Of a stretch of DNA of 64,000 bases, positions 5,607-35,560 are shown one piece after another. Source of the DNA: Sulfurimonas sp. (GTDB lineage Bacteria > Campylobacterota > Campylobacteria > Campylobacterales > Sulfurimonadaceae); assembly GCF_041563035.1 (NCBI RefSeq), contig NZ_JBFFNS010000013.1:9353-73352 (forward strand). Direction: 5' to 3'. The notes under the pieces are model-generated. The model saw only the letters and a program-made list of their open reading frames with translations. It ran no database searches and was not told the DNA's origin. The position numbers and the translations under genes were made by a program. Numbering within the stretch: position 1 is the stretch's first letter; each line of letters opens with the position of its first letter.

Positions 5607-8060
5607 TTGATAAAATATGATTATAAAAAATTATACTTGAAAGGTAACTGTGTGAATTTCAATATCGATAACAACCTGATACTTAATACATTAGAACAAA
5701 ACATCTTTGTTAAAGATATTAATTCAACTTACCTTTTTGTAAATACTACTTATGCCAAACTAGTTGGAGAAGATGCAAATTCTATCATAGGGAAAAATGA
5801 TTTAGATTTTTTTCCAAAAGAGATTGCTGATAAATATCGTGATGATGATTCTCTGGTCATACAAAATGAACAAGTTATTGATACAATTGAACCTATCCTA
5901 ATAGATGGTGAATACAGAACCATAAGAACTGTAAAGAAACCTCTTTACTCCAACGGTGATGTCATAGCTGTACTTGGAATATTCTGGGATATTACAGATT
6001 TTAATGAAGAAAAAGAGAACTTAAAAAAACTAGAATATGGTCTAAACAAAGCACAAGAACTTGCTAATATTGGTCACTGGGAACTAAACCTGGCTACAAA
6101 TGATCTTTTTTGGTCGGATGAAGTCTATCGTATTTTTGGACTTCAACCTCAAGAGTTTGGTGCTACATACGAGGCATTTTTAGAATATATTCACCCGGAC
6201 GATGTTGATCTTGTTAACAGAAGTTATACAGATTCAGTAGCAGGTAAACGTGGCTATCATGTTACACATCGTATAGTTCGCAAGAATGGTGAGATTGGTT
6301 TTGTAGAAGAGAGATGCGAACATGAGTTTGACATAGAAGGAAATGTTACTAGATCAATTGGGACTGTTCATGATATCACAAAGCAGAAAATAGCTCAAAA
6401 CGAGCTAATGTTGGCATCTGAAGTTTTTTCTAAAATGAGTGATGGTGTTGTAATCACAGACGCTAATCAAAAAATTATCAAAGTAAACGAAGCATTTACT
6501 AAAATAACAGGCTACACAACTGAAGAACTTGAAGGAAACACACCAAAAGCTTTTAGTTCAGGTTGGCATGACGAAGCATTCTATCAAAAAATGTGGGATG
6601 ATATTAATCATCACGGACAATGGAATGGTGAAATAATCGACCGTAAAAAAAATTCTGAAAGATATACGGCAGAGATGCACATTATAGCTTTACATAATGA
6701 TGAAGGTACTTTAACAAACTATATCTCGATAACAAATGATATCAGCAAGAAAAAAGAGCAAGAAAAACTCATTCATAATCTTGCATATTTTGATGCACTT
6801 ACAGAACTTCCAAATAGAGTGCTTTTTGAAGAGCGTGTAGTCAGTAGGATGCCATTTACAAAACGTAATGATAAAAAAATGGCTCTTATCTTTATTGATA
6901 TGGATAATTTCAAGAATGTAAATGATACACTTGGTCACTTTATGGGTGATATCTTTTTAATAGAAGTTGCTAATACCATTAAAGAAACTCTCAGAGAGCA
7001 GGATACTCTTGCACGTTTAGGTGGAGACGAGTTTACAATATTAGTAGAAGATATAAATTCTATTATGGATGTTATTCCAATTGCTGAGAAAATCATTGCC
7101 TCATTTAAAAAACCTATAATGATAGAAGAAAAAGAAATATATACCGGTGTCAGCATCGGTGTAAGCATCTATCCGGATGACGGTGAAAGCTATGATGAGT
7201 TAGTTAAAGCTGCCGATACAGCTATGTACCAAGTAAAAGCAAGTGGAAAAAACAACTTTCAGTTTTATACACAGACTATGAATGAGAAAATCACAGAACG
7301 TCTATTTTTAGAAGATGGTTTACGTAATGCCGTTAGTAATAATGAAATATTCATAGTCTATCAGCCAAAAGTAAATCTAGAAACAAAAAAAGTTTATGGG
7401 ATGGAAGCACTAGCACGCTGGAAGCACCCAGAACTTGGACTCGTGCGACCGGATAAGTTTATTGCCATATCAGAAGAGACGGGACAAATATACAACTTAG
7501 GACTCTGGATTGCTAAACAGGCTCTTATTGATACAAAAGCATTGCATGAGGTAGGTCACAGACTAACAGTATCTATAAATGTATCTTCTAAACAGTTAGA
7601 AAAAGAAAGTTTTATTGATGACATATGCTCACTTGTTAATGAAATAGGCATCGACAAAAGTTATGTTGAACTTGAGATTACAGAATCTCACATTATGAGT
7701 AATATAGACAAAGCTCTAATTATTTTAAAAGAATTATCTTCTAAAGGCTTCAAACTATCTATTGATGATTTTGGAACTGGTTACTCATCACTTAGCTATC
7801 TCAAAAAACTACCTGCTCAAACGATTAAAATAGATCGCAGTTTTGTACTTGATATTGACAAAGATGAAGATGACAGATCTATTGTAGCAACTATTATCGC
7901 AATGGCTAGTGCATTAGGCAAAGATGTTATAGCTGAAGGTTCTGAGACACAAGAGCATATAGATACTTTAAAATACTTACACTGCAACAAGGTACAAGGA
8001 TACTTTTTTTCAAAACCGATAGAAATAGGTGAGTTTAGGGAATTTGTTGATAATTTTTAA
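5607..8060 (+). CDS. Multi-PAS/PAC GGDEF-EAL diguanylate cyclase/phosphodiesterase
   Basis: Three PAS-like domains, RLGGDEF, GMEALARW and IDDFGTGYSSL. The true start may be the GTG a few codons downstream. Confidence 0.9.
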   Translation: MIKYDYKKLYLKGNCVNFNIDNNLILNTLEQNIFVKDINSTYLFVNTTYAKLVGEDANSIIGKNDLDFFPKEIADKYRDDDSLVIQNEQVIDTIEPILIDGEYRTIRTVKKPLYSNGDVIAVLGIFWDITDFNEEKENLKKLEYGLNKAQELANIGHWELNLATNDLFWSDEVYRIFGLQPQEFGATYEAFLEYIHPDDVDLVNRSYTDSVAGKRGYHVTHRIVRKNGEIGFVEERCEHEFDIEGNVTRSIGTVHDITKQKIAQNELMLASEVFSKMSDGVVITDANQKIIKVNEAFTKITGYTTEELEGNTPKAFSSGWHDEAFYQKMWDDINHHGQWNGEIIDRKKNSERYTAEMHIIALHNDEGTLTNYISITNDISKKKEQEKLIHNLAYFDALTELPNRVLFEERVVSRMPFTKRNDKKMALIFIDMDNFKNVNDTLGHFMGDIFLIEVANTIKETLREQDTLARLGGDEFTILVEDINSIMDVIPIAEKIIASFKKPIMIEEKEIYTGVSIGVSIYPDDGESYDELVKAADTAMYQVKASGKNNFQFYTQTMNEKITERLFLEDGLRNAVSNNEIFIVYQPKVNLETKKVYGMEALARWKHPELGLVRPDKFIAISEETGQIYNLGLWIAKQALIDTKALHEVGHRLTVSINVSSKQLEKESFIDDICSLVNEIGIDKSYVELEITESHIMSNIDKALIILKELSSKGFKLSIDDFGTGYSSLSYLKKLPAQTIKIDRSFVLDIDKDEDDRSIVATIIAMASALGKDVIAEGSETQEHIDTLKYLHCNKVQGYFFSKPIEIGEFREFVDNF

Positions 8061-24705: not shown

Positions 24706-25179
24706 ATGTTATACATAATATGTGCTTTAAAATCAGAAGCTCAAGCTTTTGTCGATAAATACAAACTTCCAAAAAACAGGCAAAATGCACAAATCACTCT
24801 AATAGTAAGCGGGGTAGGCTCTGAGAATATGTTTAATGCAACAAAAGATGCTGTAACTAATATGAGTAATAATGATACAATCATCAATGTAGGCATCTGT
24901 GGTGGAGATAAAAAGTTTGCTATTGGGGAGCTTATAGATGCAAGAGATGAAAATCTTACATGCGTAGTATCTGAAATCTCAGAACATGGTCAGTATGAAC
25001 TTGTAGATATGGAATCTGAGGGGTTTTTAAAAGCTGTGCAGAATGTAGAGAATAAATATATTTTCAAAGTCGTATCAGATCATTTTGAACCTCATAAAGT
25101 AACCAAAGATAAAACGAAATCTCTTATATTTAATGTTATAGATGATATAAACAATAAAATAAATTTTAAGGCCAATTAA
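24706..25179 (+). CDS. Short nucleoside phosphorylase/MTA-SAH nucleosidase-like protein
   Basis: ALKSEA, INVGICGG, VDMESEGF and KVVSDH resemble PNP_UDP_1 motifs; only 157 aa. Confidence 0.65.
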   Translation: MLYIICALKSEAQAFVDKYKLPKNRQNAQITLIVSGVGSENMFNATKDAVTNMSNNDTIINVGICGGDKKFAIGELIDARDENLTCVVSEISEHGQYELVDMESEGFLKAVQNVENKYIFKVVSDHFEPHKVTKDKTKSLIFNVIDDINNKINFKAN

Positions 25180-26855
25180 TGAAATACATCATTTTACTAT
25201 TACTAGCTATTTTAACTCTAAATGCAAGCACATCTGAGGAAATGAAACTAAAAAAACAGATTGGCCGTATGCTTGTTATAGGATTTGAGAATCAAAGCGT
25301 TAATCAAAACACTGAAATTGTAAAACAGATGCAGAAATACGATCTTGGTGGAGTTATTTTATTTGATAAATTTTATCAAAAAAGAAGCATCACTAAAAAT
25401 ATAGATTCACCAAAACAACTTCAAGAGCTAACTTCAAAACTTCAAAAATTCTCACGAAAACCTCTTTTAATATCTGTTGATCAAGAGGGTGGAAATGTAG
25501 CACGACTAAAACATTACTATGGATTTGATAGATTTCCATCTGCAAAAGAGGTCTCATTTCTTTCAACAAGACAGGCAAAAGATATATATGACAAACAATC
25601 ACAGATGCTTGAAGAAAATAATATCAACTGTAACTTTGCTCCTGTTGTTGATTTGGATATAAATCCTAAAAACAAAGTTATCTCAGAACTGGAACGCTCA
25701 TTTGGAGATTCAGGTCAAAAAGTAACTAAATACGCAAAAATAATGATAGATGCACAGGCAAAGCATAATGTCATAAGTGTTTTAAAGCATTTCCCAGGTC
25801 ATGGTTCATCACTTGGAGATTCACACAAAGGTTTTGTAGATATCTCAAACACTTGGACTCAAAAAGAGTTAATACCCTATCAAAATCTTATAGATGCAAA
25901 CAAAGTAGATATGATAATGAGTGCTCATGTTTTTAACTCTACACTAGACCCTAAATATCCTGCGACACTTTCATATAGTATAAATACTAAACTCCTTCGA
26001 GAAAAGATGGGCTTTAAAGGCGTGCTTATAAGTGATGATTTGCAGATGAAAGCAATCACAGAGCATTACACTCTAAAAGAGACAGTTACAAGAGCTATAA
26101 ACTCAGGCGTAGATATTCTTCTCTTTGGAAACCAGTTAGCATCTAATAATGCAGATGAGTTGGTTAAACTAATCTACTCTCAGGTTAAGAGTGGATCTAT
26201 TTCAAAGAAAAGGATTGAAGAAGCAAACACAAGAATAGAAAACTTGCATACAAAAAACTCTATAGTTCAACGACCAATAGAGTTTGGTGAAGAACGCATA
26301 GAGATGACTAAAGCTTACATCAAACAGCACTACGCTCTAGAGACAAAAGACATAACAATAGACCCCAAGGTTATAGTTCTACACTGGACTGCTGTTATGG
26401 ACTTCGAGGATTGCTTTAAACGACTAAAAGGAAACACACTCTACAGTGACAGAGGTGATATAGCAGATGCTGGAGCACTAAACGTATCTTCTCACTTTTT
26501 GGTAGCTCGTGATGGGACTATCTATCAGCTAATGCCGGACAATTGGATGGCGAGACATGTCATAGGACTTAACTACTCAAGTATCGGTATAGAAAATGTT
26601 GGTGGAGAAGATAATGTTAAAGATGATTTAACTCCTGCGCAAGTAGAATCAAATATCAAACTTGTAAAATATTTAAAAGCAAAGTATCCAAACATAGAGT
26701 ACCTCATCGGTCATCATGAATATCAAGAGATGGAAAGGTCTGCTCTTTGGTTAGAAAAAGATGCAGAGTATAGAACAGAAAAAGCTGATCCTGGAAAGAA
26801 GTTTATGAATAAGGTCAGAAAGAATGTTAAAGAATTAGGACTAAAGAAACCATAG
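25179..26855 (+). CDS. Exported fusion: GH3 beta-N-acetylglucosaminidase (NagZ-type) + Amidase_2 N-acetylmuramoyl-L-alanine amidase
   Basis: Signal peptide. NagZ motifs SVDQEGG, KHFPGHGSSLGDSH and SDDLQM. Amidase motifs VLHWT, SSHFLV, ARHVIGLNYSSIGIE, GHHE and KADPG. Confidence 0.9.
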   Translation: MKYIILLLLAILTLNASTSEEMKLKKQIGRMLVIGFENQSVNQNTEIVKQMQKYDLGGVILFDKFYQKRSITKNIDSPKQLQELTSKLQKFSRKPLLISVDQEGGNVARLKHYYGFDRFPSAKEVSFLSTRQAKDIYDKQSQMLEENNINCNFAPVVDLDINPKNKVISELERSFGDSGQKVTKYAKIMIDAQAKHNVISVLKHFPGHGSSLGDSHKGFVDISNTWTQKELIPYQNLIDANKVDMIMSAHVFNSTLDPKYPATLSYSINTKLLREKMGFKGVLISDDLQMKAITEHYTLKETVTRAINSGVDILLFGNQLASNNADELVKLIYSQVKSGSISKKRIEEANTRIENLHTKNSIVQRPIEFGEERIEMTKAYIKQHYALETKDITIDPKVIVLHWTAVMDFEDCFKRLKGNTLYSDRGDIADAGALNVSSHFLVARDGTIYQLMPDNWMARHVIGLNYSSIGIENVGGEDNVKDDLTPAQVESNIKLVKYLKAKYPNIEYLIGHHEYQEMERSALWLEKDAEYRTEKADPGKKFMNKVRKNVKELGLKKP

Positions 26856-28334
26856 ATGCAAAGTGCTTTCTCATCTCTTGACTGGTCTGTTTTTGGAGCT
26901 TATTTTCTAATTCTCGCCATTACTTCATACATTTTAGCTCAGGCAAAAATAAAAACTTCAAGAGAGTACTTTGTAAGTGCCAACTCCATGCCTATGTTTG
27001 CAGTTGCCATCTCTGTTTTAGCCACGTCTCAATCAGCCGCAACCTTTTTAGGAGCACCTGAGTTTTCATACAAAAACGATTTTACCTTTATAGGTTTTTA
27101 TATCTCTGGTTTGGTCGCTGTTATCTTTGTGGCCTATGTTCTTATCCCTAAGTTTTACGCTATGAGAGCGGTTACCGTTTATGAACTTTTAGAGACTAGA
27201 TACGGCGAGTCTGCAAAGAAACAAGCGGGGATCATGTTTCTCATCGGTCGGGTGCTTGCAAGCGGGGCAAGACTCTACATAGGTGCTTTAGCAATCTCGA
27301 TGATTCTCTTTGGAGATATTATCTTCATAAATGTTCTACTCTCTATCATCATACTGATGCTTGGAGCCTTGGTCTATACATATTTTGGCGGTATAAAGTC
27401 TGTCATTTTAAGCGACATCATTCAAGCCATTACCTATGTCGGAGCAGGTATTGTAGTACTTATCTATCTATACTACTCTCTTGATAGCATAAACATTATG
27501 CAAGTGCTAAGCGAGAACGATAAACTCCGTCTTGTTGATACTTCATTAGATGGGAAGTTTAGTATCATCGGGCTATTAAGCGGTTGGCTGCTTCTAAATA
27601 TTGCCGCTTTTGGAATGGATCAGGATATGACTCAAAGAGTTCTTAGCTGTAAAAATAAACAAGAAGCTGCAAAGTCTCTTATCGTCTCCATCTTACTTAC
27701 CATCCCTGTAGTTTTACTCTTCCTTGCCATCGGTGCCCTACTCTTTGTCTTTTATCATCAAGCATCCGTAGTACAAAGTTTTGATGGAGAAAACATCACT
27801 ATATTTATGTACTACATCTTAAATGAGATGCCAGACGGCCTTCGCGGTTTAGTAACTGTCGGAGCGATTGCCGCAGCACTTTCAAGTACAAACTCGGTTC
27901 TTGGAGCTATGGCATCTGTAGCCATCGAAGACCTATATAAACCTTGGAAACTAAGACAAGGCAAAATAGATGAGATGCACTTTGTTAAAGCATCAAAAAG
28001 AGCAGTTGTATTTTTTGCAATTGTCTTATCTATAATGGCAGTTGTCAGTTACTTCTGGCAAAGATATAGTGACCTCTCACTAATCAGTTTTGCACTTGGT
28101 GTTATGGCTTTTGCATATACTGGTCTCTTAGGAGTTTTTTTCTCAGCTATATTTACAAATAGAGGAGACTCAAAACTAGTTCCTTTTGCGCTTGTCGGTG
28201 GCTTTATAACCGTACTTTCACTTCAGCCTTACACTTTTGGCATCAGCCTTGGTTTTTCATGGCAGATAGTCATTGGGACGATTGTTGCTTTTGGGATTAT
28301 GCAATTAAAATCTTCTAAGGCTAAAAATGAGTGA
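26856..28334 (+). CDS. Sodium:solute symporter (SSS) family transporter
   Basis: EYFVSANSMP, SVLATSQSAATFLG, TVYELLETRYG, YTYFGGIKSVILSD, DQDMTQRVL and AAALSS motifs. Confidence 0.9.
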   Translation: MQSAFSSLDWSVFGAYFLILAITSYILAQAKIKTSREYFVSANSMPMFAVAISVLATSQSAATFLGAPEFSYKNDFTFIGFYISGLVAVIFVAYVLIPKFYAMRAVTVYELLETRYGESAKKQAGIMFLIGRVLASGARLYIGALAISMILFGDIIFINVLLSIIILMLGALVYTYFGGIKSVILSDIIQAITYVGAGIVVLIYLYYSLDSINIMQVLSENDKLRLVDTSLDGKFSIIGLLSGWLLLNIAAFGMDQDMTQRVLSCKNKQEAAKSLIVSILLTIPVVLLFLAIGALLFVFYHQASVVQSFDGENITIFMYYILNEMPDGLRGLVTVGAIAAALSSTNSVLGAMASVAIEDLYKPWKLRQGKIDEMHFVKASKRAVVFFAIVLSIMAVVSYFWQRYSDLSLISFALGVMAFAYTGLLGVFFSAIFTNRGDSKLVPFALVGGFITVLSLQPYTFGISLGFSWQIVIGTIVAFGIMQLKSSKAKNE

Positions 28335-29409
28335 ACTATATATCGGTGTTATGTCAGGGACAAGTATGGACGGTGTCGATATAGCTCTTTGTGAGATAGA
28401 CAGCACTAAATGCTCTCTTGTAGACTCTGCACTATATCACTACGATGGTGAGCTTGAGTCTGAAATACTTAAAGTTATAAACGGCTCCACTACACTAGAG
28501 CAAATAGGCACTATTGATAACAAGCTTGGAAATATGTTTGCAGATATAATAAACACATTTTTAAAATATAAAAAAATAGACCCTTCAACCATAAAAGCTA
28601 TAGGTCTTCATGGTCAAACACTCTGGCACGCTCCAGATGCTGACAACCCATTTTCAATGCAACTTGGGTGTCCTAATGTCGTAAGTGCAAAAACTGGCAT
28701 CCAAGTAGTAGCGGACTTTAGAAGAATGGATATGGCAAATGGTGGGCAAGGTGCACCTTTTGCTCCCGCTTTTCATCAAGAAGTATTTAAGCATCTGGAT
28801 AAAAAAACAGCTGTTTTAAATATTGGTGGAATGGCAAATATCACCCTTTTGGGTGATACGTTAAAAGGCTGGGATACCGGCTGTGGAAATGTTCTGATGG
28901 ACTACTGGAGTATAAATGATTCAGATATTGGTTATGACCTCAATGCCGAGTTTGCTCTTAGAGGAGAAGTTAAAGAAGATCTTCTTGATAGTTTTTTAAA
29001 AGATGAGTACTTTGCCAAACTTCCTCCAAAGAGTACAGGACGTGAATATTTTAACGCTACTTGGCTTGCAAACCATCTTCCACTTTTTGACACTATAAAA
29101 GCAGAAGACATCCAACGTACTCTGCTTGAACTAACAGCTAAAAGTATCGCTAATGATGCCAACAATACAGATGCAGAGCTTCTTATAGTCTGTGGTGGTG
29201 GCGCACAAAATCCACTTCTAATGCAAAGACTAAGTGAGCTGTGCAAGGCAGATATAAAAGTCAGTGATGAGTTTGAAGTAAGTTCTAGCTACATGGAAGC
29301 AATGGCATTTGCATGGCTTGCATACAAAAGAGTTCATAGAGAAGTTGTAGAGCTCTCAAGCGTAACAGGTGCTACAAAAGACTCTATTTTAGGCGGAATT
29401 TATGGATAA
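28327..29409 (+). CDS. anmK: Anhydro-N-acetylmuramic acid kinase
   Basis: GVMSGTSMDGVD, HGQTL, GGQGAP, LNIGGMAN, DTGCGN, CGGGAQN and EAMAFAW motifs. Confidence 0.95.
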   Translation: MSELYIGVMSGTSMDGVDIALCEIDSTKCSLVDSALYHYDGELESEILKVINGSTTLEQIGTIDNKLGNMFADIINTFLKYKKIDPSTIKAIGLHGQTLWHAPDADNPFSMQLGCPNVVSAKTGIQVVADFRRMDMANGGQGAPFAPAFHQEVFKHLDKKTAVLNIGGMANITLLGDTLKGWDTGCGNVLMDYWSINDSDIGYDLNAEFALRGEVKEDLLDSFLKDEYFAKLPPKSTGREYFNATWLANHLPLFDTIKAEDIQRTLLELTAKSIANDANNTDAELLIVCGGGAQNPLLMQRLSELCKADIKVSDEFEVSSSYMEAMAFAWLAYKRVHREVVELSSVTGATKDSILGGIYG

Positions 29410-30340
29410 GACAAAAGCGTGGTTGGGTACTACTCCCTATAGAGACTATGAGATAAGCATAGCATCTGCAGATGCAAGTTTTAGAAAATACTATAGGCTG
29501 TCTGGGGCGAACAAAACACTCCTGCTTATGGACTCATCACTGGAAAAAGATTCTCTTGCTCCTTTTATAGATGTGACTTCAAGACTCTTGGATGTAGATG
29601 TTAATGCTCCTAGGATTTTAGAGAAAAACCTTAAAGATGGTTTTTTGATTATTGAAGATTTTGGGAATATTCACTATCTAAATATACTAAATGATACAAA
29701 CTACAAAGAGCTTTACTCAAAAGCAATAGATACAATCATAACTATGCAAGATGCAGATACAAAAGATTTACCACTTTACGACAAAGCTTTTTTACATTTT
29801 GAGATGGATTTGATGAAAGATTGGTACTTAGAGAAGAACCTAAAAGTAACTCTAAATAAATCTCAGAAAAAGACCATTGAAAAGTCGCTAGAGACAATCT
29901 CAAATGTAGTTCTTTCTCAGCCACAAAACGTCTTTGTTCACCGTGATTATCACTCAAGAAATATCATGTTGACAAAGGATGACAAAATAGGTGTTATAGA
30001 CTATCAAGATGCAATGAGAGGAGCGATTACTTATGATCTAGTCTCGCTTCTAAAAGATTGCTACATTGCTTATGAAAGAGAAGAGATAGAAAAACTTGTT
30101 TTAGAGTTTCGTGACAAAAAAGGCTTGGACGCAAGCAATAGCGAATTTTTAAAATGGTTTGACTTTATGGGAATGCAACGACATATAAAAGTCCTAGGAA
30201 TCTTCTCTAGGCTATTCCTGCGTGACTCTAAAGACGGTTACTTAAAAGATATTCCCCTAACACTAAAATACACTATAGATGCAGCTAGCAGATACGAAGA
30301 GACAAAAGATTTGGCAGAACTTTTAAAAGAACTTCAATGA
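29402..30340 (+). CDS. amgK: MurNAc/GlcNAc anomeric kinase (APH-fold)
   Basis: DASFRKYYR, EDFG, HRDYHSRN, IDYQDA, YDLVSLLKD and QRHIKVLGIF motifs; directly upstream of murU. Confidence 0.9.
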   Translation: MDKTKAWLGTTPYRDYEISIASADASFRKYYRLSGANKTLLLMDSSLEKDSLAPFIDVTSRLLDVDVNAPRILEKNLKDGFLIIEDFGNIHYLNILNDTNYKELYSKAIDTIITMQDADTKDLPLYDKAFLHFEMDLMKDWYLEKNLKVTLNKSQKKTIEKSLETISNVVLSQPQNVFVHRDYHSRNIMLTKDDKIGVIDYQDAMRGAITYDLVSLLKDCYIAYEREEIEKLVLEFRDKKGLDASNSEFLKWFDFMGMQRHIKVLGIFSRLFLRDSKDGYLKDIPLTLKYTIDAASRYEETKDLAELLKELQ

Positions 30341-30993
30341 AAGCGATGATACTCGCAGCTGGTCGTGGTGAGAGAATGCGACCGCTTACAGACACTCTTC
30401 CAAAACCACTTCTTGAAGTTAGAGGAAAACCTCTTATAGTCTGGCATCTACAAAAGCTTGCACAGAATGGCTTTAGAGATATAGTAATAAATATTGCTCA
30501 CCTTGGATATAAAATACCAGAAGCTCTTGGCGACGGCTCGAAATATGGAGTAAATATAACTTACTCTGATGAACAAGACGAAGGAGCTTTAGAGAGTGCA
30601 GGTGGAATCGTAAAAGCTTTAGCTCTTCTCGGTAATGAACCTTTTTTAGTTGTTAATGGCGACGTCTTTTGTGACTATGATTTTGATGCTGATTTTGACC
30701 TAGGAGAGAATTTAGCCCATCTTATTTTAGTTCCCAATCCTGAGCATAATTTGGACGGAGACTTTGGCTTAAATGGAACTTCCGTTTTAAATGAAGACCA
30801 AATAAAATATACTTTTTCAGGCATAGGCTACTATAATCCAAAACTATTTAGTGAGTTAGAATATGGCAAATCTGCTTTAGCCCCACTACTTAGAGAGAAA
30901 ATAAAAAATAAAAAAGTTACTGGTGAACTATATAAAAATATGTGGCATGATATCGGTACACCACAAAGATTGAAAGATATAAATAATGATTAA
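30337..30993 (+). CDS. murU: N-acetylmuramate alpha-1-phosphate uridylyltransferase
   Basis: MILAAGRGERMRPLTD..PKPLL, LESAGG, VNGDV and WHDIGT motifs; ATGA overlap with amgK. Confidence 0.9.
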   Translation: MKAMILAAGRGERMRPLTDTLPKPLLEVRGKPLIVWHLQKLAQNGFRDIVINIAHLGYKIPEALGDGSKYGVNITYSDEQDEGALESAGGIVKALALLGNEPFLVVNGDVFCDYDFDADFDLGENLAHLILVPNPEHNLDGDFGLNGTSVLNEDQIKYTFSGIGYYNPKLFSELEYGKSALAPLLREKIKNKKVTGELYKNMWHDIGTPQRLKDINND

Positions 30994-31957
30994 ATTACTT
31001 TTAGCTGCACTAATAGCAAGCACACTATCGGCAAAATATACAAACTGTGAATTTCAAAACAAGCATTACATAGATGTGTGTAAAAAGGCTGTCAAAAATG
31101 GTGTCTCATACAACTATGCGAACAAATTTTTACTTTCTTATTTTAAAACACAAAAGTATGATGAGATAAGTTGGAAGTATCTTCAACCTCGTCATATAAA
31201 GACTCATAAAAAGAGTGAAAAAAAAGCTAATAATGTATTGGTAAAACATATTCCAAAAATAGTGCTCCATCTACAAAAATACAAAGAGGTCTATGACTAC
31301 AGCGAGAAAAAGTATGGTGTAAATCGTGAGATAATAGCAGCTATACTAATGAAAGAGACAAAACTTGGAAAGATAAAACCAACTCATGATGCCTTTATAG
31401 TATTTAATACCATCGTTGTTAGAACAGATCCAAAAACTTCACGCCAAAAGTGGCTGCTAAAGATGGGTAAAACCAATATGGTCTCCATCATCACACACTG
31501 CTATAAAAAAGGGGTAGAACCTGAACAGTGTAATCTACCGAGTTCTTATGCCGGTGCTGTTGGCATTCCTCAGTTTATGCCAAACAGTTTTGTATATACA
31601 GATGGCTATAAATCTAAACATGCTGATCTGACTAAGATGGAAGATGCTATTGTCTCTGCCAGTAAATTTCTTCATAAAAAAGCGAATTTTTCTGAGCTTA
31701 TAAAGTGGGACAAGATGCCAAATATGCCAAAAGTAGAATCAGAGTGGTATGACTATGAGCACAAATATGAAAATGCTTCACTTGTTTACACAGAGAACAA
31801 GCATGGGAAAAAGTATAAGTGCTTTACATGTAAGAAAAAAGATTTTGATTATTTTAAAGAGTATGCTAAAAAGATTATGAGGTATAACAACTCATCTAAC
31901 TACGCTATCGGGGTTATGAGGCTGGCATACGACTCACACTATTTGCTCAGTAAATAG
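30986..31957 (+). CDS. Lytic murein transglycosylase, MltB/SLT_2-like
   Basis: Signal peptide, ILMKET catalytic Glu region, SSYAGAVGIPQFMP and RYNNSSNY motifs. Confidence 0.82.
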   Translation: MIKLLLAALIASTLSAKYTNCEFQNKHYIDVCKKAVKNGVSYNYANKFLLSYFKTQKYDEISWKYLQPRHIKTHKKSEKKANNVLVKHIPKIVLHLQKYKEVYDYSEKKYGVNREIIAAILMKETKLGKIKPTHDAFIVFNTIVVRTDPKTSRQKWLLKMGKTNMVSIITHCYKKGVEPEQCNLPSSYAGAVGIPQFMPNSFVYTDGYKSKHADLTKMEDAIVSASKFLHKKANFSELIKWDKMPNMPKVESEWYDYEHKYENASLVYTENKHGKKYKCFTCKKKDFDYFKEYAKKIMRYNNSSNYAIGVMRLAYDSHYLLSK

Positions 31958-32750
31958 TAGCCTTCAGCGTATGAGTCTTTCCCGGTTCTACTAATCTAAA
32001 ATCATCAAATGCATTGGCTGATTCGATGCAGACAAAATCCTTATATGCCTCATCTCTCATAGCACTCATTCTTTTACCTTTTTCTATCCAAGGATTCCAG
32101 ATTACTACTGAAGATGAACCTTCATTGTTTATGTGGATAGTTCTATCTTTATCTGTTAGTAAGATTTCAGAATTTACCTCTTGGTAAACTCTATCTACTT
32201 CCTCTTCAAACACAACATCTCCACTTTGAGTTAATTGCTCATTTGTAAGAGCATCTAAGAATGGTTTTTTATCAAGACCTTTTACTTTTGCATCTGAAAT
32301 ATGTGAAACAGGAAAATAAGTATGAAGAGCTTGTGTGATTTTAAAAGTTTTATCATCAATGTTTTTTGTAGTAAGTTCCATAGTAAGCTTGTCTGAGACA
32401 GTTACTTTTAACTCCAGTTCAAACTTGTATGGCCATAGAGTTAATGTCGCTTCTGAGTGCTTTAAAATGAGTATAACTTCCGTTGTGTTGGCATCTAACT
32501 CTTTAGTACTTGTATGTTCAAACAACGCTGTCCTTGCAAAGCCGTGCTGAGGCAAGTTTGGGTTATTCATTCCAAAAGATGGCCAGCAGACAGGAATTCC
32601 ACCACGGATGGCTTTGCCCACTTCAAAATCACTTATTTCACTAAGCCACAAAAGAGGTTTTTCACCTTTACGAGAGTAGTGAAAAATATGTGCTCCTTGA
32701 AGTGCGATCTTTGCAGATGCAGAGGCGTTGTTTATTTCAACAATTACCAT
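31947..32750 (-). CDS. D-hexose-6-phosphate mutarotase (aldose 1-epimerase family, YeaD-like)
   Basis: LQGAH, AIRGGIPVCWP, HGFAR, ALHTYF, VIWNPW and FVCIE motifs. Confidence 0.9.
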   Translation of the reverse strand: MVIVEINNASASAKIALQGAHIFHYSRKGEKPLLWLSEISDFEVGKAIRGGIPVCWPSFGMNNPNLPQHGFARTALFEHTSTKELDANTTEVILILKHSEATLTLWPYKFELELKVTVSDKLTMELTTKNIDDKTFKITQALHTYFPVSHISDAKVKGLDKKPFLDALTNEQLTQSGDVVFEEEVDRVYQEVNSEILLTDKDRTIHINNEGSSSVVIWNPWIEKGKRMSAMRDEAYKDFVCIESANAFDDFRLVEPGKTHTLKATIY

Positions 32751-34012
32751 GATGATTTCTTATGCCATTTAACTGCATACATAAGTATAAAGAGATAACA
32801 GACTATGCCAACTAGATATGATGACTGCATATCTCCACTTATTTGAGCGACTTTACCAAATGCAAGTGGAAGTATCGCTCCGCCGGCAATTGCCATGATT
32901 AGAAGTGCACTTCCCTGAGCTGTGTACTTACCAAGACCGTCTAATGCCAGAGGCCAGATAGTAGGCCAGACAAGAGCATTGGCAAATCCAAGAAGCGCAA
33001 CGAAAGTAACCGTATCTGGAAGTGTAGGTACTCCACTCCATCCCCATAAGATCTCTGATATTTGATGTGAAGTGCTCGAACTGTAAGCAACTCCTATTAA
33101 AAACAAAATCCCCACAATAGCAGAGCTCATAAGTGCTTTTTCTTGTGAAAGAAACTTAGGTATAAAGGCAACTCCGACTAGATACCCAAAAACCATAAAG
33201 ACCATCGTATAAGATGTAAGCGCAGTTGCATTTTCAACATTCAGTCCTTGAGCATAAAGACCGATAGTATCACCGGCTATAACTTCTATACCTACATAAA
33301 AAAATAGAGCAACAGCCCCAAGTACAACACGAGGAAAATGAAAAATTGTATCTTTATCGTAAGAATCCTCTTTTTCAAACTCCAACTCTGGAATAGATGA
33401 AAACTTTACTAAAGCTATCAGTCCAGTTAAAACAACTGCCATGATGATGTATGGAATAATAAGCCTAGACGCTAACTCTTTTGTATCTATAGACGCAAGA
33501 CTCTCAGATGATAGAGATGGAATATCTGCTAGGATTAAAGATGTAAAAAGAAGTGGAACTAAGACTCCTGCACTTTTATTTATCAATCCCATAATAGAGA
33601 TTCTCATTGCGGCACTCTCTATTGGTCCAATCAAAACCACATAAGGGTTAGATGCAGTTTGAAGTATTGTAAGCCCGGTTCCAAGAGTAAATAGTGCCAC
33701 TAAAAATAGTAAAAAGTCAGCACTAAGAGCGGCAGGGATAAAAACTAAACTACCCACAACCATAACTCCCAGACCAATGGCCATACCATTTTTGTATCCA
33801 GTACGTTCAAGTACAAATGACATCGGCAGAGCCATAACCGTATAAGCTATATAAAAAGCAAAAGTTACAAAGAGAGCTTGAAACTCATTCAAGTCACAGA
33901 TGACTTTTAAAAATGGGATAAGTGAACCATTTAACCAAGTTACAAAACCAAAAATAAAAAATAAAAGACCAATTATTATCATTGCAAACGAGTTAGTATG
34001 GTTTCTACGCAA
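32744..34012 (-). CDS. MFS sugar permease, glucose/galactose (GluP/NagP/FucP) family
   Basis: FFIFGFVTWLNGSLIP, LQTASNPY, FYVGIEV, WPTIWPLAL and MAIAGGA motifs. Confidence 0.9.
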   Translation of the reverse strand: MRRNHTNSFAMIIIGLLFFIFGFVTWLNGSLIPFLKVICDLNEFQALFVTFAFYIAYTVMALPMSFVLERTGYKNGMAIGLGVMVVGSLVFIPAALSADFLLFLVALFTLGTGLTILQTASNPYVVLIGPIESAAMRISIMGLINKSAGVLVPLLFTSLILADIPSLSSESLASIDTKELASRLIIPYIIMAVVLTGLIALVKFSSIPELEFEKEDSYDKDTIFHFPRVVLGAVALFFYVGIEVIAGDTIGLYAQGLNVENATALTSYTMVFMVFGYLVGVAFIPKFLSQEKALMSSAIVGILFLIGVAYSSSTSHQISEILWGWSGVPTLPDTVTFVALLGFANALVWPTIWPLALDGLGKYTAQGSALLIMAIAGGAILPLAFGKVAQISGDMQSSYLVGIVCYLFILMYAVKWHKKSSW

Positions 34013-34832
34013 ATTTTAATCCTTCGAGATATTTAGCAACTCCGTCTTCATCATTTGTATGAGGTAGAATAATATCAGCCTCATTTTTAACTTCCACCTG
34101 TGCATTCGCCATTGCAACAGAAGTCGCTGCTAATGCAAACATCCCTAAATCATTAAAATTGTCACCAAATACAGTAAGTTTAGAGAGATCAAACCCGCTG
34201 TACTCGCTAACACTTCTAATGCCATGAACTTTGTCAGCATCTTTATGAAGAATAGTTAAAAAATAGCAGCCGACATAAGCCTCAGGTGCTAGGATAAACT
34301 TTAAAGAATTTCCAAATATTTTCTCTAAAAGAGCTGCTAACTGACGAAGCAGTTTCTCTTCACCCATATAGACTATTTTAAAGTTATCATCCATTGCTCT
34401 GATTTCTTTGCACTCCTGCAAGTTATCATCTTTTGCGTAGCGAGTAAGTACTTCTTTTTGGTGCTCATTTAAAATGCTTGAATAAAGGAAAGCCTCATTT
34501 AGATTCTCATCTGCAAGTGCTAAAACAAATGGATATATACCAAACTTTCCACCTTCATTTATAATAATATCTGCTATCTCCTTACTTATAAACTTAGTGT
34601 CAATTATCTTTTTGTCCATAGTTGCTACTAATGCACCATCGAGAAGAATCATGGGAGCATTTATATGTACATTTTCTAAAAACTGTGCTGTTTTTTTGTA
34701 TGTTCTTGCAGTCGCAACGCTTAAAATAGAGTTTGTAGATTTTGAATTCCAAATAGTTTTAGTATAATCACTAATAGATAAATCAGTTTTCAAAAAAGTA
34801 TGGTCAAGGTCTGTAATATAAATATTTTTCAT
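34005..34832 (-). CDS. Cof-type HAD-IIB phosphatase
   Basis: TDLDHT (DxDxT), VATAR, DKVHG and FGDNFNDLGMF motifs. ATG at 34832 is preferred as the start. Confidence 0.88.
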   Translation of the reverse strand: MKNIYITDLDHTFLKTDLSISDYTKTIWNSKSTNSILSVATARTYKKTAQFLENVHINAPMILLDGALVATMDKKIIDTKFISKEIADIIINEGGKFGIYPFVLALADENLNEAFLYSSILNEHQKEVLTRYAKDDNLQECKEIRAMDDNFKIVYMGEEKLLRQLAALLEKIFGNSLKFILAPEAYVGCYFLTILHKDADKVHGIRSVSEYSGFDLSKLTVFGDNFNDLGMFALAATSVAMANAQVEVKNEADIILPHTNDEDGVAKYLEGLKFA

Positions 34833-34864
34833 GTTGAGATTATAACCAAAATAGGAAGAAGTAG

Positions 34865-35560
34865 ATGAAGAGAGCAATAATTACCGGTGCGAGTAGTGGG
34901 ATTGGCAAAGAGATATGTAAAAGACTTCTAGAACTACACTATGAGGTTATCGGAATCAGTAGAAGTATAACAGATGAGGAGTTTAACACTCCGCATTTCA
35001 CGCCACTTCAAGCTAATCTATCAGATGAAAAATCAACACTTCTAACCTGCAACAGTTTAAAAGATGAAAAGATTGATATGTTAATAAACTGTGCCGGTTT
35101 TGGAAGGTTTGAGCCGCATGAAGAACTAAGTCCAAAGACTATTACGGATATGACTTTTTTGAACCTGACAGCGCCGATGCTTCTAACAAATGCTCTACTT
35201 AGATCTCTGAAGAAAAATGATGGATATCTTATAAATATCAACTCCATCGAAGCTATCAAAACGAGTAAATTTGCAGGTGTATACAGTGCCACAAAAGCTG
35301 GTTTAAAAGCCTTTAGTGATTCTCTTTTTGAAGAGACCAGAAAGAGCGGACTTAGCGTAACAAACATAAATCCGGATATGACTCAGACATCTTTTTATGA
35401 TGAACTGCGTTTTGACACAAGCGATAAAGAAGAAGAAAGACTATTGGCATCTGATATAGCAGATGCTGTTGAACATATTCTCACTATGAGAAAAGGTGCA
35501 GTCATAAGCGACTACACAATAAGAAGTTTGAAATTTGGAATTTCTAAAAAAAGTAAATAG
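34865..35560 (+). CDS. Short-chain dehydrogenase/reductase
   Basis: ITGASSGIG, INCAG and YSATK motifs. Confidence 0.88.
   Translation: MKRAIITGASSGIGKEICKRLLELHYEVIGISRSITDEEFNTPHFTPLQANLSDEKSTLLTCNSLKDEKIDMLINCAGFGRFEPHEELSPKTITDMTFLNLTAPMLLTNALLRSLKKNDGYLININSIEAIKTSKFAGVYSATKAGLKAFSDSLFEETRKSGLSVTNINPDMTQTSFYDELRFDTSDKEEERLLASDIADAVEHILTMRKGAVISDYTIRSLKFGISKKSK

What the first reader, a model, noticed from the sequence alone, without database searches (positions are those of the whole stretch)
25179..26855. Signal-peptide NagZ-amidase two-in-one muropeptide trimming enzyme
Seen: one 558-aa ORF with a signal peptide (MKYIILLLLAILTLNA), a GH3 domain with the NagZ catalytic KHFPGHG....DSH motif, and an Amidase_2 domain with apparent Zn ligands (LHWT, GHHE, KADPG) and catalytic Glu (IGIE). 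Known: these activities are usually separate cytoplasmic proteins (NagZ, AmpD) in Gram-negatives, and separate exported proteins (NagZ, AmiE) in Bacillus. Inference: the fusion channels GlcNAc-anhMurNAc-peptide directly to free sugars.
Basis: partly seen in the sequence, partly recalled or inferred. Interest (0 to 1): 0.6.

Follow-up and report, generated by a model that had tools for sequence, protein, structure and literature searches.

The report
Exported NagZ-amidase fusion enzyme, Sulfurimonas
A Sulfurimonas genome encodes one exported protein that joins a sugar-clipping enzyme (NagZ type) to a peptide-clipping enzyme (AmpD/AmiD type); it most likely takes shed cell-wall fragments apart outside the cytoplasm so that only free sugars are imported and re-used, an untested lineage-specific variant of known cell-wall recycling.

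Summary
ORF 25179-26855 (+) encodes 558 aa with a Sec-type signal peptide, a GH3 NagZ-type domain and an Amidase_2 domain. All catalytic residues are invariant in 119 fused homologues.

The fusion is not a sequencing artefact. It occurs in 12 of 401 Campylobacteria genomes sampled, in two genera of Sulfurimonadaceae. In a library of 1.84 billion representatives, one 50%-identity cluster matches over the full length.

Sister Sulfurimonas and Sulfurovum-like genomes carry the two enzymes as separate genes, each with its own signal peptide. The slot directly upstream of a conserved SSS transporter-AnmK-AmgK-MurU operon holds NagZ, the amidase, or the fusion.

In this 100%-complete genome the fusion is the only GH3 and the only Amidase_2. 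I found no AmpG, MurQ, Mpl or LdcA.

Best reading (about 0.65): periplasmic disassembly of anhydromuropeptides into GlcNAc, anhMurNAc and peptide, followed by import of monosaccharides. The two reactions are known to run in either order.

This is a new variant of a known kind and of moderate interest. The scan has noted the same fusion and operon on other DNA. No paper on it was found.

The parts
25179..26855 (+). NagZ-amidase fusion gene, 558 aa (P0001). Its ATG overlaps the stop of the upstream gene by 1 nt (TAATG), and an AAGG lies about 10 nt upstream.
25179..25226 (+). Sec-type signal peptide, residues 1-16. Predicted cleavage after LNA. No lipobox Cys.
   Evidence: Its character is conserved in the homologues. 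Met22 is not conserved, so a cytoplasmic alternative start is unlikely.
25248..26243 (+). GH3 NagZ-type domain, residues 24-355. Key residues: D101, R173, K203, H204, the D214/H216 dyad and the nucleophile D286 (codon 26034-26036).
   Evidence: Pfam. B. subtilis NagZ 3bmx at E 2.7e-44. Foldseek to 4gyj, 3bmx and 6gfv. Residues invariant in 119 homologues.
26244..26360 (+). Junction, residues 356-394. The last helix of NagZ runs straight into the N-terminal helix of the mature amidase, with no low-complexity linker.
   Evidence: Stand-alone NagZ proteins end at about residue 360. Mature stand-alone amidases begin at about residue 362. Model pLDDT here is 81-90.
26361..26795 (+). Amidase_2 (zinc N-acetylmuramoyl-L-alanine amidase) domain, residues 395-539. 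Zinc ligands H402, H512, D537; catalytic E472 and K535. A conserved insertion of about 15 residues lies between H512 and K535.
26856..28334 (+). SSS-family sodium:solute symporter, starting 0 nt after the fusion's stop. Candidate (anh)MurNAc importer.
   Evidence: Pfam and NCBIfam. Best solved relative is 5nv9, deposited as 'putative sodium:solute symporter' (E 8.6e-39); from memory this is the sialic-acid symporter SiaT. Always next to NagZ, the amidase or the fusion in relatives.
28327..29409 (+). AnmK, anhydro-MurNAc kinase
   Evidence: NF007139, 448 bits against a cut-off of 367
29402..30340 (+). AmgK-like MurNAc/GlcNAc anomeric kinase
   Evidence: NF045759, E 8e-77, below the equivalog cut-off
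30337..30993 (+). MurU, MurNAc-alpha-1-P uridylyltransferase
   Evidence: NF045761, 308 bits against a cut-off of 250
30986..31957 (+). MltB-like lytic transglycosylase (SLT_2), the likely source of anhydromuropeptides
24706..25179 (+). 157-aa first gene of the operon, function unknown, with only weak PNP_UDP/futalosine-hydrolase-like similarity
   Evidence: Conserved upstream of the fusion in G010.
31947..34877 (-). Convergent operon: Cof-type HAD phosphatase (34005-34877), NagP-like GlcNAc MFS permease (32744-34012) and an aldose-1-epimerase-family protein (31947-32750)
   Evidence: Same arrangement in G346; the HAD gene is also next to the cluster in G291.

Best explanation
The protein is exported by the Sec pathway into the periplasm. 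There it works as a two-site trimming enzyme on GlcNAc-1,6-anhMurNAc-peptides released by lytic transglycosylases; an MltB-like one is encoded in the same operon.

The GH3 domain removes the non-reducing GlcNAc. It would act as a retaining mechanism, with nucleophile D286 and the D214/H216 dyad as acid/base. The Amidase_2 domain is a zinc enzyme (ligands H402, H512, D537; general base E472; K535). It cuts the lactyl-L-Ala bond and frees the stem peptide. The order is probably free.

The products are GlcNAc, anhMurNAc and peptide. anhMurNAc then enters through the adjacent SSS symporter. It is converted by AnmK, a phosphatase (the Cof-type HAD is the candidate), AmgK and MurU to UDP-MurNAc. GlcNAc enters through the neighbouring NagP-like permease.

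Shown here: the architecture, the intact catalytic residues, the conserved signal peptide, the conserved gene neighbourhood, and that AmpG, MurQ, Mpl and LdcA were not found. Inferred: localisation, substrates, and the roles of the transporter and the phosphatase.

The fusion most likely serves co-export and fixed 1:1 proximity of two enzymes that relatives export separately.
For: Domains and motifs.

Folds: the full-length AlphaFold2 model has pLDDT 89 and pTM 0.90. Its GH3 part matches the B. subtilis NagZ/GlcNAc-MurNAc complex 4gyj and M. tuberculosis LpqI 6gfv. The amidase model matches LysC 6ssc, AmpD 2y2c, AmiD 3d2z and AmpDh2 4bj4.

Export: the signal peptide is conserved in the homologues. 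Stand-alone NagZ and stand-alone amidase orthologues in G346, G245, G291, G070 and G190, and P0127 and P0133, each carry their own signal or lipoprotein signal peptide. The amidase's signal peptide is exactly what the fusion replaced.

Context: the slot upstream of SSS-AnmK-AmgK-MurU holds NagZ (G346, G245), the amidase (G291) or the fusion (G000, G010, G254).

Genome: one GH3, one Amidase_2, and no AmpG, MurQ, Mpl or LdcA found in a 100%-complete genome. No AmpG was found in 41 genomes of the family.

Precedents: the SSS transporter's nearest solved relative is 5nv9, which from memory is the sialic-acid symporter SiaT. T. forsythia MurT is a sodium-symporter-superfamily MurNAc importer (PMC5790795).
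Against: There is no experimental localisation, activity or expression data, and the tools for RNA reads were closed.

Both domains fall below NCBI's equivalog cut-offs for NagZ (182 against 207 bits) and AmpD (30-34 against 143 bits), so substrate specificity cannot be read from family membership.

The amidase is as close to phage endolysins, which cut intact sacculi, as to AmpD.

No MupP orthologue was identified.

Relatives with unlinked, unfused genes show that the fusion is not needed for the pathway.
Confidence: 0.65

Rival explanations
1. True substrate channelling. The two active sites are held in a fixed geometry, so that a muropeptide is handed from one site to the other without release.
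For: There is no flexible linker and the junction is conserved. A pTM of 0.90 for a two-domain model suggests a defined packing of the domains.
Against: The NagZ and AmpD-type steps are order-independent in other bacteria (PMC13046382). Sister species use separate proteins from unlinked genes.
Confidence: 0.15
2. Scavenging rather than recycling. The enzyme and operon mainly harvest muropeptides shed by other bacteria in sulfidic, biofilm-rich habitats, which saves an autotroph the cost of making amino sugars.
For: The route is anabolic, leading to UDP-MurNAc, and takes up only sugars. T. forsythia uses an analogous sodium-symporter MurNAc uptake for scavenging (PMC5790795, PMC7670621).
Against: An MltB-like lytic transglycosylase sits in the same operon. 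AnmK is specific for the anhydro sugar made by the cell's own lytic transglycosylases. The two roles are not exclusive.
Confidence: 0.12
3. Sacculus remodelling or autolysin role. The amidase cuts peptides from intact peptidoglycan, as AmiD, AmpDh2/3 and endolysins do. The GH3 domain trims GlcNAc from glycan ends, shaping the wall or separating cells.
For: By sequence and fold the amidase is nearest to endolysin amidases. It is the only Amidase_2 in the genome.
Against: There is tight, conserved operon linkage to a transporter and cytoplasmic salvage enzymes. No cell-wall-binding domain was detected. GH3 NagZ enzymes are exo-acting on small substrates (established knowledge).
Confidence: 0.06
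4. Artefact, or an inactive or cytoplasmic protein: a mis-assembled fusion, a dead domain, or translation starting from an internal Met.
For: An in-frame Met lies at residue 22.
Against: The fusion is found in 12 genomes and more than 100 metagenomic proteins. All catalytic residues are invariant. Met22 is not conserved, and 62 of 119 homologues have no Met at all between the signal peptide and the first conserved GH3 motif.
Confidence: 0.02

Closest known systems
Cytoplasmic NagZ + AmpD of Enterobacteria and Pseudomonas (AmpG-dependent recycling)
   Same: The same two chemistries and the same enzyme families (GH3, Amidase_2). Downstream, AnmK, AmgK and MurU match the Pseudomonas anabolic route (PMC5371407).
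   Different: Here the two are one polypeptide with a signal peptide. No AmpG was found. Both domains score below the NagZ and AmpD equivalog cut-offs.
Bacillus subtilis exported NagZ (YbbD, PDB 3bmx/4gyj) working with AmiE (YbbE)
   Same: This is the best solved relative of the GH3 half (E 2.7e-44). It is an extracytoplasmic NagZ paired with a MurNAc-L-Ala amidase ahead of sugar uptake.
   Different: They are separate proteins. AmiE has a beta-lactamase-type fold, not Amidase_2 (own knowledge). B. subtilis NagZ has a second GH3 C-terminal domain that is absent here. Uptake is by the PTS MurP.
Periplasmic Amidase_2 enzymes: E. coli AmiD (2bh7/3d2y), P. aeruginosa AmpDh2/AmpDh3 (4bj4, 4bxj)
   Same: Exported zinc amidases of the same fold.
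   Different: They are stand-alone lipoproteins or periplasmic proteins with a peptidoglycan-binding domain, not fused to a glycosidase. Sequence relation is weak (E 0.01-0.03).
Staphylococcus aureus Atl bifunctional autolysin (amidase + glucosaminidase); from own knowledge, not tested here
   Same: A single exported precursor that combines a MurNAc-L-Ala amidase with an N-acetylglucosaminidase.
   Different: Atl's glucosaminidase is an endo-acting GH73 enzyme. The precursor is cleaved into two enzymes, and it acts on intact wall for cell separation, not salvage.
Exported NagZ-type enzymes LpqI (M. tuberculosis, 6gfv) and the periplasmic GH20 NagX (S. maltophilia, PMC13436218)
   Same: GlcNAc is removed from muropeptides outside the cytoplasm.
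   Different: They are single-function proteins. NagX belongs to another GH family and feeds AmpNG (an AmpG-type permease system) and AmpR signalling.
Other fusions of the same exported NagZ clade (P0158 GH3 + PF00144 beta-lactamase fold; P0164 GH3 + VanY; P0168/P0257 Peptidase_M1 + GH3; P0183 YdjC + GH3)
   Same: An exported NagZ joined to a second enzyme whose family is known to act on peptides, peptidoglycan or amino sugars.
   Different: The partner domains and taxa differ. None carries Amidase_2. All are uncharacterised.

Membership tests
GH3 NagZ-type beta-N-acetylglucosaminidase | GH3 N-terminal (beta/alpha)8 domain | tested here: met
   Pfam PF00933 at 231 bits. Foldseek probability 1.00 to NagZ structures, with TM (normalised to target length) 0.74-0.86 for single-domain NagZ proteins.
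GH3 NagZ-type beta-N-acetylglucosaminidase | Signature KH(F/I)PG(H/L)G-x4-D(S/T)H with the Asp/His dyad (motif as quoted in PMC13436218) | tested here: met
   Residues 203-216, invariant in 119 homologues
GH3 NagZ-type beta-N-acetylglucosaminidase | Catalytic nucleophile Asp (D318 of B. subtilis NagZ) | tested here: met
   D286 aligns to it and is invariant
GH3 NagZ-type beta-N-acetylglucosaminidase | NCBIfam NagZ equivalog score (NF003740, cut-off 207 bits) | tested here: not met
   181.6 bits. It is NagZ-like, but not the canonical cytoplasmic orthologue.
GH3 NagZ-type beta-N-acetylglucosaminidase | Hydrolysis of GlcNAc-(anh)MurNAc(-peptide) | not testable with these tools
   Needs an enzyme assay
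Amidase_2 / AmpD-type zinc N-acetylmuramoyl-L-alanine amidase | Amidase_2/PGRP fold | tested here: met
   PF01510 at 76.5 bits. Foldseek to 6ssc, 2y2c, 1lba and 3d2z.
Amidase_2 / AmpD-type zinc N-acetylmuramoyl-L-alanine amidase | Zinc triad His/His/Asp plus catalytic Glu and Lys | tested here: met
   H402, H512, D537, E472 and K535 are invariant in the fused and stand-alone forms
Amidase_2 / AmpD-type zinc N-acetylmuramoyl-L-alanine amidase | AmpD equivalog score (NF008758, cut-off 143 bits) | tested here: not met
   30-34 bits
Amidase_2 / AmpD-type zinc N-acetylmuramoyl-L-alanine amidase | Specificity for 1,6-anhydro-MurNAc-peptides | not testable with these tools
   Context with AnmK suggests it, and nothing shows it
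Pseudomonas-type anabolic MurNAc recycling (AmpG, NagZ, AmpD, AnmK, MupP, AmgK, MurU) | AnmK and MurU present | tested here: met
   Both score above their equivalog cut-offs
Pseudomonas-type anabolic MurNAc recycling (AmpG, NagZ, AmpD, AnmK, MupP, AmgK, MurU) | AmgK | tested here: inconclusive
   NF045759, E 8e-77, but 258 bits against a cut-off of 550
Pseudomonas-type anabolic MurNAc recycling (AmpG, NagZ, AmpD, AnmK, MupP, AmgK, MurU) | AmpG permease importing disaccharide-peptides | tested here: not met
   No TIGR00901 match in G000 (100% complete) or in 40 other genomes of the family
Pseudomonas-type anabolic MurNAc recycling (AmpG, NagZ, AmpD, AnmK, MupP, AmgK, MurU) | MupP phosphatase | not tested
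   No MupP model was searched. A Cof-type HAD phosphatase is conserved beside the cluster.

The most novel reading that the evidence does not exclude
The fusion is the single gateway of a periplasm-first route of cell-wall salvage in a Gram-negative bacterium, in which nothing larger than a monosaccharide crosses the inner membrane. Its rigid two-site architecture hands the muropeptide from one site to the other, so that no partly trimmed, signalling-active anhMurNAc-peptide escapes. It would have been built by joining the lineage's own operon NagZ to an amidase of a different lineage, the one linked to the SSS transporter in Sulfurovum-like bacteria.
Probability: 0.2. Interest if true: 0.6.

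Novelty: new variant of a known kind. Interest (0 to 1): 0.45.

Why it matters
Peptidoglycan recycling in Gram-negative bacteria is taught as AmpG import followed by cytoplasmic NagZ and AmpD. In this lineage both enzymes are exported, here as one protein. AmpG, Mpl and LdcA were not found, and a sodium symporter sits where a sugar importer is needed.

If confirmed, this would be a compact periplasm-first, sugar-only salvage route in Campylobacterota. It would also be a natural experiment: fused and split forms occur within one genus, which allows a test of what gene fusion buys two sequential enzymes.

A single-chain enzyme that strips muropeptides to free sugars could also be a handy reagent for muropeptide analysis.

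Tried and rejected
- **Independent GH3+Amidase_2 fusions.** Twenty long relatives from the representative search were scanned with Pfam. They carry other partners and none has Amidase_2. The protein atlas shows one cluster with both families. More distant independent fusions cannot be excluded, and an InterPro architecture count was not available.
- **G091.** The 604-aa open frame around the amidase in G091 looked like another fusion. It lies in DNA crowded with long overlapping ORFs on both strands, which I take as a sign of high G+C, and is probably an over-long frame. I dropped it.
- **Promoter and terminator scan.** It gave fewer hits than the shuffled controls and was uninformative.
- **The 157-aa upstream protein.** It has no meaningful Pfam or PDB relative.
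- **Literature.** No paper combines peptidoglycan recycling with Sulfurimonas. None describes a NagZ-Amidase_2 fusion.
- **Origin of the NagZ half.** The AU test did not reject grouping the fused NagZ halves with the Sulfurovum-like NagZ proteins (p 0.15). The 'chimeric origin' is therefore only half supported.
- **Active-site geometry.** The distance between the two sites could not be measured, because model coordinates are not exposed.
Full report

Yes. The ORF at 25179-26855 (+) is open and encodes 558 aa.

- **Domains.** Pfam places a GH3 N-terminal domain at residues 24-355 (E 3e-68) and an Amidase_2 domain at 395-539 (E 3e-21). Both are far above their curated cut-offs.
- **GH3 half.** Its best solved relative is the exported NagZ (YbbD) of Bacillus subtilis (3bmx, E 2.7e-44). 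That alignment puts the query's KHFPGHG-x4-DSH (203-216) on the enzyme's Asp/His dyad, and D286 (SDDLQM) on the nucleophile D318. The motif is the one quoted for GH3 N-acetylglucosaminidases in PMC13436218.
- **Amidase half.** It aligns to T7 lysozyme. H512 falls on the first His of its HHE, which I recall is its zinc ligand His122, and the IGIEN Glu (E472) lies where AmpD-type enzymes have their catalytic Glu. H402 (LHWT), K535 and D537 (KADPG) complete the set.
- **Conservation.** Every one of these residues is invariant in 119 full-length fused homologues and in stand-alone relatives of the amidase.
- **Models.** AlphaFold2 gives a confident full-length model (pLDDT 89, pTM 0.90). Its GH3 part matches NagZ structures, including the GlcNAc-MurNAc complex 4gyj and M. 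tuberculosis LpqI. A separate model of the amidase part (pLDDT 82) matches endolysin amidases, AmpD, T7 lysozyme, AmiD and AmpDh2/3.

**2. Is it exported?**

No signal-peptide predictor was available, so I used comparison.

- The N-terminus has one Lys, twelve hydrophobic residues and LNA. Across the homologues the sequence drifts, but this character and an Ala at -1 persist.
- Met22 is not conserved. 62 of 119 homologues have no Met between the hydrophobic segment and the first GH3 motif, so a cytoplasmic form made from an internal start is unlikely.
- The strongest argument comes from relatives that carry the two enzymes separately. Their NagZ proteins and their amidases each have their own signal peptide. 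One such stand-alone amidase from the protein library (P0127) has a lipoprotein-type signal peptide.
- Stand-alone NagZ proteins end at about query residue 360. Mature stand-alone amidases begin at about residue 362.
- The fusion therefore joins the end of NagZ to the start of the mature amidase, removing only the amidase's signal peptide. Both activities were already periplasmic before they were joined.

**3. How widespread is it?**

- All 120 best hits in the 5.8-billion-protein collection carry both domains, are mostly 546-568 aa long (three shorter, N-terminally cut entries of 521-528 aa), and come from Sulfurimonas or Campylobacterota. One hit bears the tag 439483.CBGD1_1442; taxid 439483 is Sulfurimonas gotlandica GD1.
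- In the library of 1.84 billion representatives, one 50%-identity cluster (P0122) matches over the full length. The other full-size proteins in the top 150 match only the GH3 half, or only the amidase half in the case of the stand-alone amidases P0127 and P0133; three short entries cover just part of the query.
- The protein atlas likewise shows one cluster with both families.
- Among 401 Campylobacteria genomes, the fusion is present in 12. Nine are in the window's genus (counting G000) and three are in a second genus of the same family.
- At least nine other genomes of the same genus carry NagZ (about 365 aa) and the amidase (about 225-240 aa) at unlinked loci. So do several Sulfurovum-like and other genera.

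**4. Context.**

The gene is the second of seven tightly coupled genes:
- a 157-aa protein of unknown function
- the fusion
- an SSS symporter
- AnmK
- an AmgK-like kinase
- MurU
- an MltB-like lytic transglycosylase

A convergent operon encodes a Cof-type HAD phosphatase, a NagP-like GlcNAc permease and an aldose-1-epimerase-family protein.

In relatives, the slot directly upstream of SSS-AnmK-AmgK-MurU varies:
- split Sulfurimonas (G346, G245): NagZ
- a Sulfurovum-like genome (G291): the amidase
- G000, G010, G254: the fusion

So the transporter and the cytoplasmic salvage genes are linked to either exported enzyme.

The window's genome is 100% complete. The fusion is its only GH3 and its only Amidase_2. 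I found no AmpG (none in 41 genomes of the family either), and no MurQ, Mpl or LdcA above threshold.

The SSS protein's nearest solved relative is 5nv9, deposited as 'putative sodium:solute symporter' (E 8.6e-39); from memory this is the sialic-acid symporter SiaT. A sodium-symporter-superfamily MurNAc importer, MurT, is known in Tannerella forsythia (PMC5790795).

**5. Mechanism.**

The most economical reading has four steps:
- Lytic transglycosylases release GlcNAc-anhMurNAc-peptides.
- The exported fusion removes GlcNAc and the peptide.
- anhMurNAc enters by the SSS symporter and GlcNAc by the NagP-like permease.
- AnmK, a phosphatase, AmgK and MurU rebuild UDP-MurNAc, as in the Pseudomonas route (PMC5371407).

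With Mpl and LdcA not found, the peptide is probably not re-used as a unit. This situation is discussed for many bacteria in PMC13046382.

Localisation, substrates and the transporter's cargo are inferred, not shown.

But it is not supported by anything I could measure. The two reactions run in either order elsewhere, and sister species work with unlinked genes.

A minor caveat from my own knowledge: some GH3 enzymes with the Asp/His dyad act as phosphorylases. The neighbouring GlcNAc permease fits hydrolysis better.

**6. Origin.**

- **Amidase tree.** The fused domains group with the SSS-linked amidases of Sulfurovum-like genomes. They do not group with the stand-alone amidases of their own genus, which form a separate, well-supported clade.
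- **AU test, amidase.** Forcing all Sulfurimonas-type amidases into one clade is rejected (p-AU 0.0014). I named that group after seeing the tree, so the p-value is optimistic.
- **NagZ tree.** The fused halves sit with the split NagZ proteins of the same genus. The alternative grouping with the Sulfurovum-like NagZ proteins is not rejected (p 0.15).
- **Conclusion.** The fusion may join a native NagZ to an amidase of another lineage, but this is only half supported. One or two fusion events cannot be told apart.

**7. Comparison and novelty.**

Each half belongs to a well-known family. Extracytoplasmic versions of both are also known: B. subtilis NagZ with AmiE, LpqI, AmiD and AmpDh2/3, and the GH20 NagX.

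The exported NagZ clade is fused to other enzymes elsewhere. Partners include a PF00144 beta-lactamase-fold domain (the family to which I recall B. subtilis AmiE belongs), VanY, M1 peptidase, YdjC and GDPD.

What is new is this particular single-chain pairing, and its role as the sole NagZ-type and AmpD-type enzyme in a genome where no AmpG was found.

Public records name it only 'glycoside hydrolase family 3 N-terminal domain-containing protein', 'N-acetylmuramoyl-L-alanine amidase' or 'beta-N-acetylhexosaminidase'. I found no paper on it.

Earlier notes of this scan describe the same fusion and operon on other DNA. I used them as leads only.

**Verdict:** a real feature and a new variant of a known kind, of moderate interest.

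Noticed in passing
window 24706-25179 (+): A 157-aa gene is translationally coupled to the fusion (1-nt overlap). It has only a faint PNP_UDP/futalosine-hydrolase-like signal and no PDB relative. It is conserved upstream of the fusion in G010 (47% identity), but tblastn did not detect it beside the cluster in G346, the only split locus whose flank was long enough to look.
   Followed up: partly
window 31947-34877 (-): A convergent operon encodes a Cof-type HAD phosphatase, a NagP-like GlcNAc MFS permease and an aldose-1-epimerase-family protein. The same trio follows the cluster in G346, and the HAD gene alone follows it in G291. The HAD is a candidate non-orthologous stand-in for MupP.
   Followed up: partly
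window 26856-28334 (+): The SSS symporter is always adjacent to the exported NagZ, amidase or fusion. Its nearest solved relative is 5nv9, deposited as 'putative sodium:solute symporter' (E 8.6e-39); from memory this is the sialic-acid symporter SiaT.
   Followed up: partly
proteins P0158, P0242, P0164, P0168, P0257, P0183, P0186, P0130 (other taxa): The exported NagZ clade is fused in other organisms to PF00144 and PF13354 beta-lactamase-fold domains, VanY, Peptidase_M1, YdjC, GDPD and Cache domains. It is a recurrent fusion hub, and none of these fusions is characterised.
   Followed up: partly
G000 whole genome: No Mpl, LdcA, MurQ or AmpG was found in a 100%-complete genome, so only the sugars of peptidoglycan appear to be salvaged.
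   Followed up: partly
L022 (G091:C1:1714000-1727000), 5944-7392 (-): The amidase homologue lies in a 482-604-aa open frame, in DNA crowded with long overlapping ORFs on both strands (a sign of high G+C). This is probably an over-long frame rather than another fusion.
   Followed up: partly
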